The translations under genes were made by a program, and so were the position numbers. Below, one piece after another: positions 1 to 6,677 of a DNA stretch of 6,677 nucleotides. The stretch comes from a virus (lineage: Duplodnaviria > Heunggongvirae > Uroviricota > Caudoviricetes). The number at the start of each line of letters is the position of its first letter. The stretch's first letter is position 1. The DNA is taken from the IMG/VR virus record IMGVR_UViG_2534681835_000040; one strand, 5' to 3'. The notes under the pieces were generated by a model. It had not been told where the DNA came from and searched no databases. It worked only from the letters and a program-made list of their open reading frames with translations.

Positions 1-300
1 TCTCAGTATGTGTCACTGGCCTATACGGAGCGACTAAAAGAAGCCGGATTACTGGCATCAACAGGGAGTACAGGCGACTCGTATGACAACGCGATGGCTG
101 AGAGCATCAATGGTCTTTACAAAGCGGAGGTAATACACCGTAAGAGCTGGAAAAACCGTGCAGAAGTGGAACTGGCCACACTAACGTGGGTGGACTGGTA
201 TAACAATCGACGATTGCTGGGAAGGCTGGGCCATACTCCTCCGGCAGAAGCAGAAAAAGCTTATTATGCTTCCATCGGAAACGATGATCTGGCAGCCTGA
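1..300 (+). CDS. IS3-family transposase (OrfB, DDE/integrase-core domain), C-terminal fragment; 5' end lies outside the window
   Basis: Frame 1 is open from base 1 (the track's start at 10 is an in-frame GTG, not a real start). Translation ...SQYVSLAYTERLKEAGLLASTGSTGDSYDNAMAESINGLYKAEVIHR... carries the SQY and DSYDNAxAES...K motifs of the C-terminal part of the IS3-family DDE catalytic core (conserved E and downstream K/R). Stop TGA at 298..300. Confidence 0.8.
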   Translation, partial: SQYVSLAYTERLKEAGLLASTGSTGDSYDNAMAESINGLYKAEVIHRKSWKNRAEVELATLTWVDWYNNRRLLGRLGHTPPAEAEKAYYASIGNDDLAA

Positions 301-342
301 GTTCACAGATAAAACACTCTCCAGGAAACCCGGGGCGGTTCA
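1..342 (+). mobile_element. Right end of an IS3-family insertion sequence (partial; left part outside window); right boundary approximate
   Basis: Transposase 3' end at 1..300. IS3-family elements end in ...CA shortly after the transposase stop; a candidate terminus is GGTTCA ending at 342, but the true boundary could lie anywhere in about 305..357. No inverted-repeat partner is available in the window to confirm. Confidence 0.45.
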
Positions 343-657
343 GAGCGCATAGGCAGCTTGGACGTTCGAGACAATATTGAGCGCCGTGCTTATGAAATTG
401 CACTGGCATCGCTGGAAGCAGAACCGATAGCGTGGGAATGCGGTGAAAACATAATCCTGTTTAACCCTGACACAGTTGAAGCATACGCAAAACGTGCGGA
501 AATATCACCTAAACCACTATTCTCCGCGCCGCCAGCGCTGGTAGTGCCTGATAAGTTGCCGCGTGAATACAGAAACGGTTGGCCTCTTGCGTATAGTGAT
601 TATGCTGAAGGCTGGAACGACTGCCGCGAAGCCATGCTTCAGGGAGATAAATCATGA
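313..657 (+). CDS. Prophage protein of unknown function, probably a 3' fragment truncated by the IS insertion (no ATG start; the track start at 358 is TTG)
   Basis: The frame is open from 313 (after TAA at 310..312) to the TGA at 655..657. The only start-like codon before the end is TTG at 358 with a weak AGG upstream. The stop overlaps the next gene's ATG (ATGA at 654..657), as in phage operons. Sits immediately after the IS right end. Confidence 0.5.
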   Translation, partial: NTLQETRGGSERIGSLDVRDNIERRAYEIALASLEAEPIAWECGENIILFNPDTVEAYAKRAEISPKPLFSAPPALVVPDKLPREYRNGWPLAYSDYAEGWNDCREAMLQGDKS

Positions 658-1019
658 TTAATCGTATCAAGCTGGAGCACATCCTCGAATATGCCAGGCA
701 GCAGAGGCATATTGGTCAGCATTGTAAAATTCCACCAGGAGATATGGTTGAAATCATGGAGATTGCCATGCGCAAGGCTGGCAACTCTCCGGTAACTCCG
801 GATGGTTGGATAAGCTGTAGTGAGCGAATGCCGGAAAAGAATCAGAGCGTGCTTATTTCGGTGAATTTCGATAGCTCTCTGGTTGAGCCGCTAATATGCT
901 CTGCACGCTATACCGGAAGTACATTCCGGCGTGGAGATGTAACGATTAAGCCGGGCAATGGTGTTGAGCAGGTAACACACTGGATGCAGCTACCAGAACC
1001 GCCGCAGGAGGTGAAATGA
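654..1019 (+). CDS. DUF551-family prophage protein
   Basis: ATG at 654 with GGGAG Shine-Dalgarno 7 nt upstream. The C-terminal half GWISCSERMPEKNQSVLISVNF...GVEQVTHWMQLPEPPQ has the W..ER(L/M)PE ... THWMxLPEPP signature that I recognise as DUF551, common in enterobacterial prophages. Confidence 0.85.
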   Translation: MINRIKLEHILEYARQQRHIGQHCKIPPGDMVEIMEIAMRKAGNSPVTPDGWISCSERMPEKNQSVLISVNFDSSLVEPLICSARYTGSTFRRGDVTIKPGNGVEQVTHWMQLPEPPQEVK

Positions 1020-1102
1020 TGAATTGGCCTGAAGCATTCACCGCAGTAGGAGTTGCAATAGCGGTGGCATTTATTCTGTATTCGCTTTTCCGCTGGGGAT
1101 AA
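1016..1102 (+). CDS. Small hydrophobic (single predicted TM) peptide, 28 aa, not in the ORF track
   Basis: ATG at 1016 overlaps the upstream TGA (ATGA coupling) and is preceded by AGGAGGTGA at 1006..1014. Translation MMNWPEAFTAVGVAIAVAFILYSLFRWG has a clear hydrophobic core. Stop TAA at 1100..1102, 4 nt before the next gene. Confidence 0.45.
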   Translation: MMNWPEAFTAVGVAIAVAFILYSLFRWG

Positions 1103-1106
1103 AGGA

Positions 1107-1349
1107 ATGTTCGCTCTGATTCAACGTGGTCAGATATACACGGACAGAGCCGGATACCCTGTGGTGATTACTCGCAGTACTCAGCACTCAGTATTCTTTC
1201 GGCGCATGGACGGACGCTCCGGGCGGGTACACATTGGTGAGTTCAACAGCCTGTTCGAACATATTGACCGCCAGGAGTACCGCAAAATTCTGGCGGGCAC
1301 TGAGCAGGAAATGCACCTGAAAAAATTACGCGCAATGCAACGGAGGTGA
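1107..1349 (+). CDS. Small prophage protein (80 aa), resembles the DUF4222-type proteins found near xis/int in enterobacterial prophages
   Basis: ATG at 1107 with GGGGA/AAGGA upstream. Same strand and tight spacing with its neighbours. The DUF4222 resemblance is from memory and is not verified. Confidence 0.75.
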   Translation: MFALIQRGQIYTDRAGYPVVITRSTQHSVFFRRMDGRSGRVHIGEFNSLFEHIDRQEYRKILAGTEQEMHLKKLRAMQRR

Positions 1350-1352
1350 TAC

Positions 1353-1487
1353 ATGCATACGGCTTTTGAGTTCTGGGTTCGCAAGACATTCGGCAATCGC
1401 TACGACCTGCCCCGTGATGTTGACGGCTTCTACTGCCGTGAAGTTGTGAAACGAATGTTTGACGTGTGGTGCCACTGCCGTGGATGA
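1353..1487 (+). CDS. Small Cys/His-containing protein, 44 aa, not in the ORF track (possible Zn-binding)
   Basis: ATG at 1353 preceded by a strong Shine-Dalgarno GGAGGTGA (1342..1349) that contains the upstream gene's stop. Translation MHTAFEFWVRKTFGNRYDLPRDVDGFYCREVVKRMFDVWCHCRG; stop TGA at 1485..1487. It fills an otherwise unexplained gap in a dense operon. Confidence 0.45.
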   Translation: MHTAFEFWVRKTFGNRYDLPRDVDGFYCREVVKRMFDVWCHCRG

Positions 1488-1505
1488 ACGTTTTATGAGG
1501 TAACT

Positions 1506-1721
1506 ATGGCTCTCAACATTGATTGCGTACCTATAACGACATGGTGTCGAGATATGGGAGAAACGCTGGATGCCGTTAACAAACGGTTACAACGTGGAGT
1601 ATGGAAGGAAGGGGTTCAGGTTTTAAATGTGGAAGGCTCCAAAGAACGATGGATTGATTTAACTGAGGTTTCAAAATGGGCGAGAAAAAACAAATATCCT
1701 TATCACTCCCAAGAGGAATAA
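1506..1721 (+). CDS. xis: Excisionase-like / recombination directionality factor
   Basis: 71-aa protein immediately upstream of and overlapping the integrase gene by 46 nt in a different frame, the classic xis-int arrangement. GAGG sits 6 nt before the ATG. The call rests mainly on position and size; the sequence family is not verified. Confidence 0.6.
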   Translation: MALNIDCVPITTWCRDMGETLDAVNKRLQRGVWKEGVQVLNVEGSKERWIDLTEVSKWARKNKYPYHSQEE

Positions 1722-2848
1722 CAATTCGTCAATACAAGAATTGCTCTACATTAGTTGTAACCTTCACATATAAAGGGGTTCTTTGCAGAGAACCCTTACC
1801 CAGGCTGGAAGCTAACGCAAAGGGGATTAAGTATGCTGAACGGCTTCTAGGAGAAATAAAAAACCAAATCAGTGATGATTCATTCGATTTTTCAAAATAC
1901 TTTCCAAACTCTAGGAAGCTGGCATTATTTGGAATGGTAAAGAAAAATAAAAGTGTGAGAGATTACCTAGATGAGTATCTGGAAATTTGCAAAAACAGAA
2001 AGTTATCACCTTCAACAATAAATGGATATGAAAAATGCGTATCTGCATTATCTGAACTACATAAGCTACATGTTGTTGACCTGACACCAGCAATATTAAA
2101 AAAATGGATCTCAAAAAGAACAACAAAACTTAAGACCATAAGAAACAATCTATCATTTTTAAGAAGTGCAGTAGATGAAGCGGTCACTGACGGACTTATA
2201 ACGATAAATCCTGTAAAACTGGTTAGTGCAAGTAGATACCATGCGGTTAACCATACAGCCAATACTGATGATTATGAAGTGGATCCATTCACACCAGCAG
2301 AGGCAACAGCTATCTACAACGCCTGTCTTTATCAGGAATGGAGAAATCTTTTTTGTTTCGCATTCAATACAGGCCTACGAAGCTCAGAATTATGTGCATT
2401 GCGTTGGTCTGATATTGATTTTATTGGGCATACCGTTCACGTACAGGTCGCTTCTGTCGTTGGTGTGATAAAAGGAACCAAAACAAAAGCTGGTACCAGA
2501 AAAGTTGAATTAAACAATGAAGCTATAATGGCATTACAGGCCCAGAAATCATTTACGATGATGAGAAGTGATTTTGTATTCAGTGATCCAAAAACACGCA
2601 AGCCGTGGGCTAATTCAGCTGCGATTCGTAAGAAAGCCTGGCTCCCGACTCTTAAAAAGGCCGGAGTTCGTTACCGCAATCCATATCAGACTAGACATAC
2701 ATTCGCTACACGGCATATCAGCCAGGGGGCAAATTTATTCTGGCTTGCCGGTCAAATGGGACACAAAGGACCAGAAATGCTGTTTAGACACTATGGTTCA
2801 TATTTATCAGAATATGATGGCAAGACTGCGATCTCAGAAGTAATCTAG
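1676..2848 (+). CDS. int: Tyrosine site-specific integrase (phage integrase family with N-terminal arm-DNA-binding domain)
   Basis: The N-terminus LPRGITIR...VVTFTYKGVLCREPL...FDFSKYFP matches the arm-binding (DUF3596-like) N-domain pattern. The C-terminal half carries the catalytic signature in order: GLRSSELCALRWSDID (Arg), KTKAGTRKV (Lys), TRHTFATRH (Arg), MGHKG (His), RHYGSY (Tyr nucleophile). GAGG lies 8 nt before the ATG at 1676. Confidence 0.9.
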   Translation: MGEKKQISLSLPRGITIRQYKNCSTLVVTFTYKGVLCREPLPRLEANAKGIKYAERLLGEIKNQISDDSFDFSKYFPNSRKLALFGMVKKNKSVRDYLDEYLEICKNRKLSPSTINGYEKCVSALSELHKLHVVDLTPAILKKWISKRTTKLKTIRNNLSFLRSAVDEAVTDGLITINPVKLVSASRYHAVNHTANTDDYEVDPFTPAEATAIYNACLYQEWRNLFCFAFNTGLRSSELCALRWSDIDFIGHTVHVQVASVVGVIKGTKTKAGTRKVELNNEAIMALQAQKSFTMMRSDFVFSDPKTRKPWANSAAIRKKAWLPTLKKAGVRYRNPYQTRHTFATRHISQGANLFWLAGQMGHKGPEMLFRHYGSYLSEYDGKTAISEVI

Positions 2849-2982
2849 CCGCTTAAATATTTCAAAATATGTACTAAGGTAGGACAGAGAATAGACTCCA
2901 ACTTACACCTGAAATACATAAAAACATCTAGAAATAATATGAAATCTTTTGTTTTTCATATCGTTATGTAACTTGGGTGTTT

Positions 2983-3008
2983 GGGTTCAACTCCCGCCAG
3001 CTCCACCA
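2983..3008 (+). other. ssrA: 3'-terminal 26 nt of tmRNA (ssrA), i.e. T-loop, 3' acceptor strand and CCA, without the gene body: attachment-site core
   Basis: GGGTTCAACTCCCGCCAGCTCCACCA matches, from memory, the 3' end of E. coli ssrA (...GGACGCGGGTTCAACTCCCGCCAGCTCCACCA). The bases just upstream (..GGGTGTTT) do not match ssrA, so this is a partial copy, as expected at a prophage/island junction. It lies exactly between two integrase genes. Confidence 0.7.
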
Positions 3009-3044
3009 CTTTTTAGTTGTTTGAAGTTCAATGAAGTCTACTAA

Positions 3045-3076
3045 GCCCACACAGCACAAGCTCTGCGGGCTTTTTT
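3045..3076 (+). terminator. Rho-independent terminator-like hairpin plus T-tract downstream of the ssrA 3' fragment
   Basis: GCCCACACAGCACAAGCTCTGCGGGC forms an imperfect GC-rich stem (GCCC/GGGC outer pairs, AGC/GCT inner pairs) followed by TTTTTT at 3071..3076. Plausibly the native ssrA terminator retained at the junction. Confidence 0.45.
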
Positions 3077-3173
3077 ACGTCTATTGTCGTCCAGTGAGAA
3101 TTGCTGAGAACTACGAGTTATGGCACCCTGAATGGGACCCACTAAGAAGGGTCCAAAAACCGAGGGTCCCAAA

Positions 3174-4403
3174 ATGGCAAAAATCGCTAAGAAGCTCACT
3201 GACACTGAAATCAAAAGCACCAAGCCAGCCGATAAAGAAATCAACTTGTTTGACGGTGATGGTCTGATTCTACGAATCGCTCCTTTGGCGAAAGGAGGCA
3301 AGAAAAATTGGTATTTCAGGTATGCAGTACCAGTGAGCAAGAAAAGAACCAAAATGAGCCTTGGGACATATCCTCACCTTACCCTTGCAAGAGCCAGAGC
3401 CTTACGTGATGAATATCTCTCCTTTCTGGCAAATGGTGTTGATCCCCAAATCCATAACAACGATAAGGCGAAGGCATTAAAGAGTGCTACTGAGCACACT
3501 CTCCAAGCCGTAGCGCGGAAATGGTTAGATGAGAAGGTAAAGACATCAGGTATCTCACAAGACCATGCAGCAGACATCTGGCGCAGCTTAGAGAGAAATG
3601 TCTTTCCCGGTCTGGGTAATGTCCCTATCAATGAGATCCGACCTAAGCTCTTAAAACAACACCTTGATCCTATTGAGCAACGAGGCGTATTGGAAACTCT
3701 ACGCCGTATCATTTCACGTCTGAATGAAATCTTCCGGTGGGCAGCTACTGAAGAACTTATTGAGTTCAACCCGGCTGACAACCTTGGTCAAAGATTCAGT
3801 AAACCAAAAAAGCAAAATATGCCTGCCCTTCCCCCAAGCGAATTGCCAAGGTTTATGGAATCTTTGACGAATGCGTCAATCCGGTTGGAAACACGTATGC
3901 TAATTGAATGGCAATTGTTGACATGGGTTCGTCCGGGTGAAGCCGTTCGCGCAAGGTGGTCTGATATTGATACAACCAACAGCATTTGGAACATTCCTGC
4001 TGATTTCATGAAAATGAAAAAGCTTCACAAAGTTCCTTTGAGTAAAGAAGCTTTGCGCATCCTTGAATTAATGAAATCAATAAGTGGGCATAGAGAATGG
4101 GTTTTCCCCAGCATAAAAGCGCCTCTTAATCATATGCATGAACAAACAGCCAACGCAGCTATCATCCGAATGGGGTTCGGAGGCGAGCTTGTAGCTCACG
4201 GTATGCGTTCTATTGCACGAACAGCGGCAGAGGAGTCTGGTAAATTCAGAGCTGAAGTTCTTGAGGCAGCGCTTGCCCACTCGAAAAAAGATGAAATTAT
4301 CGCAGCATACAATCGTGCAGAATATCTGATAGAGCGACAGAGTTTGATGCAATGGTGGAGTGATTACGTTCAAGCTCAAAGATCAAATGCTCTGGTAGCC
4401 TAA
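3174..4403 (+). CDS. int: P4-type tyrosine integrase (CP4-57 IntA-like)
   Basis: From the ATG at 3174 (GAGGG 7 nt upstream) the protein begins MAKIAKKLTDTEIKSTKP...LFDGDGLILRI...WYFRY, matching the N-terminus of P4/CP4-57-type integrases; the ATG at 3132 is an alternative start. Catalytic signature: RPGEAVRARWSDID (Arg), KMKKLHKVPLS (Lys), AHGMRSIART (His..Arg), LAHSKKDEIIAAYNRAEY (His, Tyr). Sits directly downstream of the ssrA 3' fragment, as intA does at ssrA in E. coli K-12. Confidence 0.9.
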   Translation: MAKIAKKLTDTEIKSTKPADKEINLFDGDGLILRIAPLAKGGKKNWYFRYAVPVSKKRTKMSLGTYPHLTLARARALRDEYLSFLANGVDPQIHNNDKAKALKSATEHTLQAVARKWLDEKVKTSGISQDHAADIWRSLERNVFPGLGNVPINEIRPKLLKQHLDPIEQRGVLETLRRIISRLNEIFRWAATEELIEFNPADNLGQRFSKPKKQNMPALPPSELPRFMESLTNASIRLETRMLIEWQLLTWVRPGEAVRARWSDIDTTNSIWNIPADFMKMKKLHKVPLSKEALRILELMKSISGHREWVFPSIKAPLNHMHEQTANAAIIRMGFGGELVAHGMRSIARTAAEESGKFRAEVLEAALAHSKKDEIIAAYNRAEYLIERQSLMQWWSDYVQAQRSNALVA

Positions 4404-4441: not shown

Positions 4442-4630
4442 ATGGAAACCCTATTCAAAGTTTTTGAAAAATTTAGTTCCAGACCACTTTTTTTTATTTT
4501 TTTCGGACTCTCACTTTGTGAATTTTTTCAGAAACAATCTGTTCTGATGAATCCATCAGCAGATAACATCGCGAAATTATTCGCAGCCATGATATTAGTT
4601 GTTTTTTTACTTGGGGATTTGAATGGCTAA
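4442..4630 (+). CDS. Hypothetical small protein (62 aa) with two hydrophobic segments; doubtful
   Basis: ATG at 4442 with GAAGG about 8 nt upstream. Translation has PLFFIFFGLSLCEFF and AKLFAAMILVVFLLG hydrophobic stretches. It lies in a very AT-rich spacer where ORFs arise easily by chance. Confidence 0.25.
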   Translation: METLFKVFEKFSSRPLFFIFFGLSLCEFFQKQSVLMNPSADNIAKLFAAMILVVFLLGDLNG

Positions 4631-4873
4631 TCTTCAAGTTCAATGTAAACCTTGAACCTCATGATCAAGGCGATATTGGACCAACAATTGGAACGGCTAC
4701 TTTAGCTGTATACTTAGTTTATGCCTTTCACTTTCTCAGTGAAAATCCTGAAGCATTAAATTTAAAGTTATTAACTAACTCTGGCTTTATATACAGCACA
4801 ACTCTATTATTATTCTCATTAGAATGCATGAAGCTTAGAAGACTTAAACAAAAATAAACAACATCATTGTGAT

Positions 4874-4915
4874 GATAAATATAAAATAGGCATGGCGAAA
4901 AAAAATCACCACGCC
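4874..4915 (-). terminator. Putative rho-independent terminator for the large - strand ORF
   Basis: On the - strand, GGCGUGGUGA pairs with CGCCAUGCC (about 9 bp with two G-U wobbles, 4889..4915) around a U-rich loop, followed by the U-rich tract UAUUUUAUAUUUAUC (4874..4888). It lies 14 nt after the stop at 4929..4931. Confidence 0.4.
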
Positions 4916-4928
4916 TAAAATATAATAA

Positions 4929-6677
4929 TTATGGTAGCATCATTGATACATAATCCACACCAATCCTTGAGCTATACTGAGACGCTATAGCCTGATATCT
5001 TTCTGCATAACCAGTTCTCAGTTGAGATTTAAGTTTGAGTCGGACAGGAACATTTTGCACGTTGCCATCCATATTACTTAAAAACACGGCAGAAATAATA
5101 TTTTTTTCTTCGCCATCAACTGTTGTTCCATGATTCAACACCACCATATAATCAACAACAGGAAGCGTTTTATCCCCTTCGAAAATAGAGAGATATTTTC
5201 TTTGATTTTTATGCATTACATATATATATTTCGAATGTTCAGCAAATGGCAATGCTTTACTCTGACTGGCGTTAAAAAGCTCCAGAACTTTAATGAGCCT
5301 GTGCGGACTTAATCTTACATGGTGAGGGTCGTTACCCTGAGTAGGAACCAAATCACATGCCGCAGATACACATAAATACCATTTGTTCGACTCTGTATCA
5401 AAGAAAATAGTGCCAGTAGAAATATGACCATCTTCAAAATTCTTTGAAGACAAATTCATATTTAAAGCATGATACATTTCGTGATAAGTATCATTATTTG
5501 ATGGCAGATCCATTTTTGAAGAGCAATATTGGAGCAATGCAGCAACTCCGCTGTTAGCGTATTCATTTGAATAGCTATCAAAAACACTTTTGATAAATTC
5601 ATCCAGCGTATTATTATTTTTAAGTCTTTGATAAAGCTCTTCTGATAAATTACCAAATACAAAGTCAATATTTCTACATCTAATATCAGGCGAGTCTGAT
5701 TTTAATATCTCATTTAACCACGCAGCTTGACCGTAATGATCGTTAGCCAAATGATTTACAAAAGATAAAGCCTCAGCTTCGATTGCATTCTGAATTTCAG
5801 ATTTTATTAACTGATAATAAGATGGTTTCCATTCAATGAGAGAATCATTGAGAGTTTGCCAAATCCTATCTCCATCGTTTTCATGATCATCTTGAACCTT
5901 ATGAAATAGGGAGACAAAGATATTACCACATTGAATCCATTTTACTCCGCTTTCATCACCCCGAATGACATTGCCAGATGTGTTGCTAGAAATAATTGCA
6001 TTTCTAGACACAGCATATTCTGCAATCATTTTTGCAATGAAGTTTTTATCCTTTTGATCCTCCAACACAGCATCATCATGTATTAATCTTTTAATTCTTC
6101 TACAAGGCTTACTGTCTTTAATATAGGCTATTGTTTCATCTCTTGTGAGAGCTTTATTACCATTATCATTTAAGTTCGGTAATACAACGTCTTCCCAATA
6201 ACTTTGGACATCTTCATTATCGTAGTCAATGATCAAGCTGTTGATATCCAGAGCACCTTTGAGAGTCGATGATATCTGCATCCAAACCGTTTCTAAATTC
6301 TCTCTAGTATATATTACAATCATATTTAAATGATCGGAGTCTTTCAAATCTTGTAATAGTTTAAGTGTTTTATCAGGTGCATTATTATCAAGATGATAAT
6401 CTACAATAATAAGATCTGATTTTCTAATCCGATCCACATCGAAATTAACAGAACCATTGTCAACATCACAAATCATATTTTTAGATTGAAAAAAGCTCTC
6501 AAGAGTAGCGGCTCGTTTAGATGAGTCAATTTTGTTGTAGTCTAAATCAACTTCGTTATTCAACGCCCTGATTGATTCAGAATACGTCAGAAAATCGTCA
6601 TCAATCATGACAACGGAACGAATTGCATTTTCGCAGAAAGTTTTCTGGACAAGAGAATTATAATTTGCCACTGTCAT
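4929..6677 (-). CDS. Large hypothetical protein (582 aa in window; ATG is at the window edge) with an N-terminal CheY-like receiver-like region and an unassignable C-terminal region of about 440 aa; candidate cargo/defence gene
   Basis: Uninterrupted 1749-nt ORF, stop TAA (reverse complement of 4929..4931). Visibly AT-rich codon usage unlike the prophage genes. N-terminal motifs in receiver-like order: SVVMIDDDF (acidic pair), DLIIVDYHLDNNAPDKTLKLLQDLK (Asp at the end of a hydrophobic strand), NMIVIYTRE (Thr). No P-loop, GGDEF or other motifs I can recognise downstream. Confidence 0.85.
   Translation of the reverse strand: MTVANYNSLVQKTFCENAIRSVVMIDDDFLTYSESIRALNNEVDLDYNKIDSSKRAATLESFFQSKNMICDVDNGSVNFDVDRIRKSDLIIVDYHLDNNAPDKTLKLLQDLKDSDHLNMIVIYTRENLETVWMQISSTLKGALDINSLIIDYDNEDVQSYWEDVVLPNLNDNGNKALTRDETIAYIKDSKPCRRIKRLIHDDAVLEDQKDKNFIAKMIAEYAVSRNAIISSNTSGNVIRGDESGVKWIQCGNIFVSLFHKVQDDHENDGDRIWQTLNDSLIEWKPSYYQLIKSEIQNAIEAEALSFVNHLANDHYGQAAWLNEILKSDSPDIRCRNIDFVFGNLSEELYQRLKNNNTLDEFIKSVFDSYSNEYANSGVAALLQYCSSKMDLPSNNDTYHEMYHALNMNLSSKNFEDGHISTGTIFFDTESNKWYLCVSAACDLVPTQGNDPHHVRLSPHRLIKVLELFNASQSKALPFAEHSKYIYVMHKNQRKYLSIFEGDKTLPVVDYMVVLNHGTTVDGEEKNIISAVFLSNMDGNVQNVPVRLKLKSQLRTGYAERYQAIASQYSSRIGVDYVSMMLP

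What the first reader, a model, noticed from the sequence alone, without database searches (positions are those of the whole stretch)
4929..6677. Large AT-rich orphan ORF convergent on a P4-type integrase: candidate undescribed cargo or defence gene
The gene sits beside the 3' end of a P4/CP4-57-type integrase, the position where P4-like satellites have been reported to carry variable anti-phage cargo. Its composition is clearly more AT-rich than the neighbouring prophage genes, suggesting separate acquisition. Apart from the N-terminal receiver-like motifs, I cannot match its roughly 440 C-terminal residues to any family (no P-loop, no obvious nuclease, GGDEF or EAL signatures). The ORF starts exactly at the window edge, so partner genes or the promoter may lie just beyond 6677.
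Basis: partly seen in the sequence, partly recalled or inferred. Interest (0 to 1): 0.85.

Follow-up and report, generated by a model that had tools for sequence, protein, structure and literature searches.

The report
Leftover receiver gene of a methylase-linked kinase system
The 582-codon gene is real, but it is not an orphan: it is the receiver-type partner of a described yet functionally untested three-gene cassette (DNA cytosine methylase, sensor kinase-like ATPase, receiver-effector), and in E. coli only a broken remnant of that cassette survives next to the integrase.

The parts
4929..6677 (-). RR-like gene (582 aa; Response_reg_2 family; WP_000214990.1)
   Evidence: ORF. PF19192 E 3.6e-31. 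111 homologues, nearly all 570-625 aa. AF2 model with pLDDT 85 and pTM 0.78.
5892..6677 (-). Receiver (REC-like) domain, residues 1-262, with a helical insertion at about 128-226. It has the acidic pair D26/D27, the phospho-acceptor D93, T124 and K260.
   Evidence: These residues are invariant in 43 sequences. Secondary structure is from the AF2 model. Foldseek hits to NarL, RstA, BfmR, Spo0F and KdpE receivers have probability 0.95-0.99 but weak E-values.
5448..5891 (-). Family-specific helical bundle, residues about 263-410. It contains invariant W283 and P285, and it ends in the H403-A-L-N406 motif.
   Evidence: No Pfam, PDB or NCBIfam match.
4932..5447 (-). Family-specific beta-rich domain with a C-terminal helix, residues about 411-582; the putative effector. 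Invariant residues are G422-T423, C436, C441-D442, P445, Q552, R554, Y557, R571, G573 and D575.
4887..4917 (-). Terminator-like hairpin (12-bp stem followed by a T-run), 12 nt after the stop codon; the likely end of the kinase/receiver operon
   Evidence: 4 terminator-like sites found against 0.9 expected. This one is the strongest.
4442..4857 (+). Small hydrophobic ORF (138 aa in other strains, WP_000448925.1), frameshifted here at the T-run near 4602. This ~500-bp segment is absent from the intact relative L056, so it is not part of the conserved system.
3132..4403 (+). P4/CP4-57-type tyrosine integrase of the ssrA island that carries the cassette
   Evidence: The same integrase lies next to smpB/ssrA in L002 and in the intact relative L056.

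Best explanation
The gene encodes the receiver-effector (RR-like) component of the Response_reg_2/HEF_HK two-component-like system. The complete form of that system is a three-gene mobile cassette:
- a C5 DNA methylase;
- a ~1000-aa soluble protein that joins an N-terminal paraMORC-type GHKL ATPase (related to the GHKL module of BbrUII/HgiDII restriction enzymes) to a histidine-kinase core (HEF_HK DHp plus HATPase_c);
- this ~590-aa protein.

Shown here:
- family membership;
- intact phospho-acceptor residues;
- an abutting kinase-like gene, arranged for translational coupling;
- strict three-gene linkage in other bacteria;
- carriage on mobile elements;
- the E. coli copy is a deletion derivative of an ssrA island that carries the full cassette in a relative.

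Inferred mechanism:
1. The methylase marks host DNA.
2. The GHKL module of the kinase-like protein monitors DNA or its methylation state.
3. It drives His-to-Asp phosphotransfer to D93 of this protein.
4. Phosphorylation of the receiver releases the family-specific C-terminal module, in the way CheB or Detocs DtcC are gated.
5. That module acts as a toxin-like or nucleic-acid-targeting effector. It is possibly of the CcdB/MazF fold.
6. The result is restriction-like or abortive defence, or post-segregational addiction.

In this window's lineage the methylase and the sensor half of the kinase are gone and the kinase fragment is a pseudogene. The gene is therefore most likely an inert, recently stranded remnant.

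Sub-confidences:
- family membership and remnant status: 0.9;
- defence or addiction role of the intact cassette: about 0.55;
- CcdB/MazF-like effector: about 0.25.
For: Family and receiver:
- PF19192 at 109 bits.
- D26, D27, D93, T124 and K260 are invariant.
- Receiver-fold hits by Foldseek.

Partner:
- The HEF_HK/HATPase_c partner ends 1 nt upstream, with GGAG 8-14 nt before the ATG.
- The family and its 91.6% linkage to the kinase-like gene are published, together with C5-methylase and R-M enrichment (PMC8011034).

Cassette:
- Methylase, kinase-like and receiver-like genes are all present in 38 of 39 informative non-E. coli loci, across several phyla.
- It occurs on ICEs, on Tn7, and next to an HTH controller-like gene.
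- The kinase-like N-terminus matches NF050001, the BbrUII/HgiDII restriction enzyme family, at E 5e-14. Its C-terminus matches histidine-kinase CA domains.
- The whole cassette is uniformly 33-36% GC.

Remnant status in E. coli:
- The intact layout sits at the same smpB-ssrA-integrase site in L056.
- E. coli homology starts at kinase codon ~379, and the longest ORF starts at residue 426 of 997.
- None of 5426 E. coli genomes covers the kinase N-terminus.
- The kinase fragment has a stop in strain 8E and IS damage in other strains.
- An IS splits the receiver gene after residue 453 in a cluster of 1605 sequences.
- The 2005 CP-1639 record labels the region 'remnant integrative element'.

C-terminal region:
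- It is found only fused to this receiver: 673 representative clusters.
Against: - No experiment shows phosphotransfer, defence or toxicity for any member of the family.
- PADLOC v2 has no model for either protein.
- No recognisable nuclease is present in the cassette, so the 'restriction' arm is unidentified.
- The gene is intact and almost invariant in hundreds of E. coli genomes. The kinase core (H-box SHELEE plus the CA domain) is intact in many strains. Residual or domesticated function cannot be excluded.
Confidence: 0.8

Rival explanations
1. One reading: a free-standing, previously undescribed anti-phage gene in a variable cargo slot of a P4-like satellite, functional as it stands.
For: It lies next to a P4-type integrase and is AT-rich. 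The C-terminal region is uncharacterised. The ORF is intact in most carriers.
Against: The family is described and annotated. The gene is always paired with a kinase-like gene and a methylase elsewhere, and those partners are deleted or broken here. The island has no satellite genes. The slot is invariant across E. coli. In other strains the variable cargo (DarTG, a methylase with AAA_15, ParA) sits in a different slot, between the two integrases.
Confidence: 0.06
2. The protein is a regulatory response regulator. Its C-terminal module is a DNA-, RNA- or protein-binding output that tunes expression or activity of the linked methylase or of neighbouring R-M genes. This is the 2021 paper's suggestion. 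On this view it is not an effector.
Against: No HTH or any other known output domain is detected. The cassette contains no other candidate for a restriction or toxic activity that would explain why a methylase is obligatory. The many invariant polar residues (H403, N406, T423, C436, C441, D442, Q552, R554, Y557, R571, D575) look more like an active site than a binding surface.
Confidence: 0.17
3. The C-terminal module is itself a novel DNA endonuclease. The cassette would then be a phosphorylation-activated restriction-modification system that cuts unmethylated DNA, rather than a toxin or abortive-infection device.
For: The C5 methylase is obligatory. The GHKL module of the partner is homologous to that of the BbrUII/HgiDII restriction enzymes. 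The cassette has no other nuclease. Conserved acidic, basic and His residues are present.
Confidence: 0.22
4. The E. coli remnant has been domesticated. The truncated kinase core and the receiver protein still signal, or the receiver is fed by another kinase or by acetyl-phosphate, and they provide a new function.
For: The 572-aa kinase fragment keeps the H-box and the CA domain and is intact in most of the loci read. The receiver gene has 0-1 SNP among 12 copies, and three of the four point substitutions seen are synonymous. About 11% of complete E. coli genomes keep it.
Against: The near-identity leaves too little divergence to show selection. There is repeated independent decay by IS elements and stop codons in both genes. 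773 genomes retain kinase DNA but only 573-586 retain the receiver gene.
Confidence: 0.1

Closest known systems
Response_reg_2 / HEF_HK two-component-like pairs (Bellieny-Rabelo, Pretorius and Moleleki 2021, Genome Biol Evol; PMC8011034)
   Same: The gene is a member. It has the PF19192 domain with all receiver catalytic residues, an adjacent HEF_HK/HATPase_c gene, and an association with C5 methylases and R-M genes. E. coli strains were in that data set.
   Different: The E. coli copy lacks the methylase and the HATPase_c_3 half of the kinase. It corresponds to the paper's 'group 2' architecture, shown here to arise by deletion. The paper did not analyse the ~320-aa C-terminal module and tested no function.
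Detocs (DtcA kinase, DtcB buffer receiver, DtcC receiver-effector; Rousset et al. 2023, bioRxiv 10.1101/2023.01.24.525353)
   Same: Both would be defence systems built on a His-Asp phosphorelay, in which a receiver domain gates a C-terminal effector.
   Different: This cassette has no separate buffer receiver gene. Its sensor is a paraMORC GHKL module rather than TPR. Its effector is an unknown fold rather than a PNP nucleosidase. It has an obligatory C5 methylase. There is no sequence relationship, and its function is untested.
paraMORC / GHKL ATPases of R-M and defence systems (Iyer et al. 2008, PMC2292703; BbrUII/HgiDII restriction enzymes, NF050001; VcSduA GHKL-Shedu, PMC12137116)
   Same: The partner's N-terminal HATPase_c_3 module is homologous. 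It has the same link to cytosine methylases, Vsr and defence islands.
   Different: In those proteins the GHKL module is fused to, or works with, a nuclease or helicase. Here it is fused to a histidine-kinase core that addresses a separate receiver protein. That arrangement is not described in Iyer 2008.
CcdB / MazF / Kid toxins
   Different: No sequence or profile similarity. Foldseek does not recover them. The domain here is larger, and it is fused to a helical bundle and a receiver rather than paired with an antitoxin.
Receiver-gated enzymes such as CheB (textbook knowledge, not tested here)
   Same: An N-terminal receiver that is presumed to inhibit a C-terminal catalytic domain until it is phosphorylated.
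   Different: The C-terminal fold is unrelated and the role is different.

Membership tests
Response_reg_2 (PF19192) RR-like family | Match to the Pfam model above the gathering score | tested here: met
   109.1 bits against a cutoff of 27, E 3.6e-31, residues 19-175.
Response_reg_2 (PF19192) RR-like family | Receiver catalytic set: acidic pair after beta1, phospho-acceptor Asp after beta3, Thr after beta4, Lys after beta5 | tested here: met
   D26/D27, D93, T124 and K260 are invariant in 43 sequences, including this one. Their positions fit the strands of the AF2 model.
Response_reg_2 (PF19192) RR-like family | An adjacent gene for a HEF_HK kinase-like protein | tested here: met
   A HEF_HK (26 bits against a cutoff of 24.1) plus HATPase_c protein ends 1 nt upstream. 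It is N-terminally truncated in E. coli.
Complete methylase / HK-like / RR-like cassette | A C5 DNA methylase directly flanking the pair | tested here: not met
   Present in 38 of 39 informative non-E. coli loci. Absent from all E. coli loci read.
Complete methylase / HK-like / RR-like cassette | [quoted passage not shown] | tested here: not met
   The E. coli partner starts at residue 426 of 997. None of 5426 genomes covers the N-terminal part. There is a stop codon in strain 8E.
Canonical two-component response regulator | Match to Response_reg (PF00072) and a known output domain | tested here: not met
   Only PF19192 is reported at E up to 0.1. No output domain was found.
Canonical two-component response regulator | Phosphorylation of the conserved Asp by the cognate kinase | not testable with these tools
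   This needs in vitro phosphotransfer or Phos-tag analysis.
Known anti-phage defence systems (PADLOC-DB v2.0.0) | A significant match to a defence-protein model | tested here: not met
   For the RR-like protein, only a 15.7-bit hit at E 0.0028 to an unrelated TM model. No hits for the full-length kinase-like proteins. Only the methylase matches, as MTase_II. The library dates from 2023.
Detocs | Three genes including a stand-alone buffer receiver (DtcB) | tested here: not met
   The cassette consists of methylase, kinase-like and RR-like genes only. No second receiver gene is seen in the gene tables.
Type II restriction-modification system | A recognisable restriction endonuclease paired with the methylase | tested here: not met
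   No nuclease domain or fold was found in either non-methylase protein. Only the GHKL module resembles that of BbrUII/HgiDII enzymes: 51.8 bits against a family cutoff of 550.
CcdB/MazF toxin superfamily | A shared fold supported by more than one method, or by profile similarity | tested here: inconclusive
P4-like satellite cargo hotspot | Satellite hallmark genes (psu, delta/ogr, sid, alpha primase) in the same element, and variable content at the slot | tested here: not met
   The island holds only the integrase, the small ORF, the RR-like gene and the kinase fragment. A P4-like element in L001 is a separate neighbour. The slot content is at least 99% identical in 559 of 573 genomes (with the flanks, 562 of 586).

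The most novel reading that the evidence does not exclude
The intact cassette (C5 methylase, paraMORC-GHKL/histidine kinase, receiver-effector) is a new class of immune or addiction system. In it, discrimination of self from foreign DNA by methylation is sensed by a MORC-like ATPase. The signal passes by His-Asp phosphotransfer to a receiver that unleashes an effector of a fold not yet seen in solved structures, possibly a distant CcdB/MazF relative. The E. coli gene would then be a still-competent effector stranded without its sensor. It could be used to study the effector in isolation.
Probability: 0.3. Interest if true: 0.75.

Novelty: already known. Interest (0 to 1): 0.35.

Why it matters
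For this window the result is mostly a clarification. An apparently mysterious AT-rich gene beside the Stx1 prophage and ssrA integrase of STEC O111 is the stranded end of a broken mobile cassette. It is not a hidden active defence gene.

At the family level, the analysis sharpens a lead that has had no experimental follow-up since 2021:
- The three-gene linkage is nearly absolute across phyla.
- The kinase's sensor module is related to the GHKL module of a family of restriction enzymes.
- The receiver protein carries a conserved ~320-aa module with an apparent active site and no confident structural relative.

If this is a defence system, it would join Detocs as a second case of two-component signalling in bacterial immunity, and it would be the first tied to DNA methylation.

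Tried and rejected
- MADS (methylation-associated defence system): its preprint mentions no receiver or GHKL components. Rejected.
- WonAB and VcSduA of V. cholerae: these are ABC-ATPase plus PD-(D/E)xK, and GHKL-Shedu. They serve as precedent only and are not this system.
- Iyer 2008 paraMORC1-5: no kinase or receiver variant is described.
- A 2026 HisKA preprint only lists PF19191.
- Sequence search of the PDB with the protein and with profiles A1 and A2: nothing significant.
- Foldseek against the PDB, with the full model and with the C-terminal model: only weak receiver/flavodoxin hits and nothing for the C-terminal region.
- AFDB Foldseek was unavailable.
CheY also failed, so the test is too insensitive to count against either resemblance.
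- I tried to retrieve BbrUII/HgiDII enzymes to compare their nuclease part with the C-terminal region. The search returned only family fragments.
- Permissive Pfam scan of 17 C-terminal regions: no recurring family.
- tRNA/tmRNA and Rfam scans of the window: nothing.
- Polymorphism among 12 E. coli copies is too low (0-1 SNP) to assess selection.
- Plasmid and phage collections: two distant plasmid hits, plus two prophage records that simply include the chromosomal flank.

Full report
**Observation.** The window has a 1749-nt ORF on the minus strand (4929-6677; ATG; 582 aa).
- Its GC content is 0.343. The adjacent P4-type integrase (3132-4403) is 0.45 and the prophage segment 1-1675 is 0.50.
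- The integrase carries Arm-DNA-bind_3, Phage_int_M and Phage_integrase domains and passes NCBIfam NF007246.
- The two genes converge. Between them lies a small ORF, frameshifted in the window, and a strong terminator-like hairpin (4917-4887, minus strand) 12 nt after the stop codon.

**Identity of the gene.**
- Pfam assigns residues 19-175 to Response_reg_2 (PF19192) at E 3.6e-31. NCBIfam and PADLOC v2 give nothing useful.
- The same protein (WP_000214990.1, 'response regulator receiver domain') occurs in 586 of 5426 complete E. coli genomes. It is always chromosomal, and in 562 of them it is at least 99% identical.
- PF19192 and its partner domain HEF_HK (PF19191) were defined by Bellieny-Rabelo et al. 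2021 (PMC8011034). They reported 91.6% linkage between the RR-like and HK-like genes across 644 regions. They also reported enrichment of C5 methylases, Vsr and R-M genes, and a relationship of the HK-like protein to paraMORC ATPases. No functional test was done, and E. coli strains were in their data.
- The gene is therefore neither an orphan nor undescribed.

**What lies beyond the window edge.**
- In all E. coli contigs read, a gene for a HEF_HK plus HATPase_c protein ends TAA-T-ATG, 1 nt before the start codon. A GGAG lies 8-14 nt upstream, an arrangement suited to translational coupling.
- The window matches E. coli O111:H8 strain 8E over its full length, apart from one T in a homopolymer run. 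In that strain the kinase gene is an annotated pseudogene with an internal stop.

**The complete system.**
- I read loci from other bacteria around close and distant homologues. These include Pantoea, Citrobacter, Serratia, Erwinia, Acinetobacter, Vibrio, Shewanella, Alteromonas, Rhizobium, Bradyrhizobium, Sphingomonas, Planctomycetota and Fimbriimonadales.
- In 38 of 39 informative loci, three genes lie directly adjacent, often overlapping: a 350-420-aa C5 DNA methylase, a 970-1050-aa HK-like protein and a 580-670-aa RR-like protein.
- The HK-like protein has an N-terminal HATPase_c_3 domain, then HEF_HK and a C-terminal HATPase_c.
- Its first ~130 residues match NCBIfam NF050001, the BbrUII/HgiDII restriction enzyme family, at E 5e-14. 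This is far below that family's cutoff, so it is shared-module similarity and not membership.
- Its C-terminus matches solved histidine-kinase CA domains.
- The cassette rides on ICEs (relaxase, TraG, TraU), on Tn7 (TnsABCDE) and on integrase islands. In Acinetobacter an HTH_3 controller-like gene sits next to the methylase.
- The cassette is uniformly 33-36% GC in hosts of about 50% GC.

**The E. coli copy is a remnant.**
- Locus L056 has an RR-like protein 87% identical to the window's. It shows the ancestral layout at the same site: smpB, (ssrA), P4-type integrase, then the RR-like gene (582 aa), the HK-like gene (991 aa) and the methylase (389 aa).
- DNA homology between E. coli and L056 starts at HK codon ~379. 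In strain 8E it abuts a fragment of an alpha-amylase-like gene. In other strains an IS3 sits at the junction.
- The longest kinase ORF left starts at residue 426 of 997.
- No complete E. coli genome covers the kinase N-terminus, and none of the E. coli loci read has the methylase.
- Decay continues. IS1 or IS3 break the kinase fragment in several strains. There is a stop codon in 8E. An IS3-family element splits the RR-like gene after residue 453 in a cluster of 1605 sequences typical of O103/O121 STEC.
- 773 genomes keep kinase DNA, but only 573-586 keep the RR-like gene.
- The 2005 GenBank record of the cryptic Stx1 prophage CP-1639 already labels this stretch 'remnant integrative element'.

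**The protein.**
- 111 homologues were found. The full-length ones are 570-625 aa and align from end to end.
- Invariant residues include the full receiver set (D26, D27, D93, T124, K260). A second set lies in the C-terminal region: H403-A-L-N406, G422-T423, C436, C441-D442, P445, Q552, R554, Y557, R571, G573 and D575.
- The AF2 model (pLDDT 85, pTM 0.78) shows three parts: a receiver with a helical insertion (1-262), a helical bundle (about 263-410), and a beta-rich domain ending in a helix (about 411-582).
- Foldseek against the PDB recovers only receiver/flavodoxin folds, at weak E-values.
- Foldseek on the same model found nothing. PDB profile searches and a permissive Pfam scan of 17 family members also found nothing.
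- A profile of the C-terminal region finds 673 representative clusters among 1.84 billion proteins. In full-length hits it always begins near residue 250-330, so it is known only in fusion with this receiver.

**Mechanism.** The shown and inferred steps are separated in the best explanation above. I infer a methylation-gated system:
1. The methylase marks self DNA.
2. The MORC-like GHKL module of the kinase surveys DNA.
3. His-to-Asp transfer to D93 relieves receiver inhibition of the C-terminal effector.
4. The effector arrests the cell or attacks nucleic acid.

The obligatory methylase, the carriage on mobile elements and the restriction-enzyme-like GHKL module support a defence or addiction role (about 0.55). 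The class of effector is open: toxin-like CcdB/MazF about 0.25, novel DNA nuclease about 0.22, regulatory output about 0.17. In this window the sensor and the methylase are gone, so the gene is most likely inert. The simultaneous loss of the methylase and the sensor half is what one would expect if an unprotected active system were harmful, but this is inference.

**Comparison and novelty.**
- The gene is a member of the published Response_reg_2 family.
- It works most like Detocs DtcC or CheB, where a receiver gates an effector, but it is not a member of those families.
- The partner resembles paraMORC and GHKL restriction components.
- As an entity the gene is already known. New here are the near-absolute three-gene linkage, the restriction-enzyme link of the GHKL module, the domain anatomy and 'dark' status of the C-terminal module, and the demonstration that the E. 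coli locus is a deletion derivative.
- Interest is modest for this locus (0.35) and higher for the family if it is tested.

Noticed in passing
window 1-2848 (context: L054 1-9848): The left part of the window is the integrase end of an Stx1a-converting lambdoid prophage. In strain 8E, stxA1a and stxB1a lie about 3.3-4.6 kb left of the window start. Window 10-300 is the 3' end of an IS1203/IS629-type transposase. It is followed by a 99-aa ORF, DUF551, DUF4222, an excisionase and the phage integrase (1676-2848).
   Followed up: partly
window 2849-3131: Two tyrosine integrases lie in tandem, only 283 bp apart: the Stx-phage integrase and the P4-type island integrase. This indicates tandem integration at ssrA. 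No tmRNA or tRNA remnant is detectable in the window, and the att core was not mapped.
   Followed up: partly
L009 6135-7451; L007 13776-16488; L053 2035-3957 (between the two integrases in other strains): In other E. coli strains the short gap between the prophage integrase and the island integrase holds different cargo: DarT with its NADAR antitoxin, a D12-class methylase with an AAA_15 ATPase, or ParA with two hypothetical genes. This is the variable slot at this site. The slot of the finding is not variable.
   Followed up: no
window 4442-4857, T-run near 4602: A 138-aa hydrophobic ORF (WP_000448925.1) is frameshifted in the window by a T7-versus-T8 run. This is the only difference from strain 8E over 6677 nt, so it could be a sequencing error. 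The ~500-bp AT-rich segment that holds it is absent from the intact relative L056.
   Followed up: partly
L015 (DAIPZW010000118.1): A 5.6-kb contig binned as a Bacteroidales MAG carries the E. coli RR-like gene with a single SNP (G448D) and an identical kinase fragment. It is probably a mis-binned E. coli contig.
   Followed up: no
L001 14178-21749: In one E. coli strain a P4-like satellite (alpha primase, Psu, Ogr/Delta, AlpA, Ash, Derepression) lies immediately beyond the island integrase. It is a separate element that shares the ssrA region.
   Followed up: no
P0355; PMC8011034: One relative of the kinase N-terminal module is fused to a Vsr endonuclease domain. The 2021 paper reports Vsr genes directly downstream of RR-like genes in 20 genera, which fits 5mC-linked mismatch repair accompanying the cassette.
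   Followed up: no
L011 7034-9999; L055 5204-8188: The kinase-like gene is also split in some non-E. coli loci: 766 + 219 aa in Citrobacter farmeri CP011132, and 214 + 715 aa in a Logan contig. Inactivation of the sensor kinase may therefore recur outside E. coli.
   Followed up: no
L040 (Gemmatimonadetes MAG): This is the only informative non-E. coli locus with no C5 methylase within about 8 kb of the kinase/receiver pair. Its kinase ORF is also short (842 aa).
   Followed up: no
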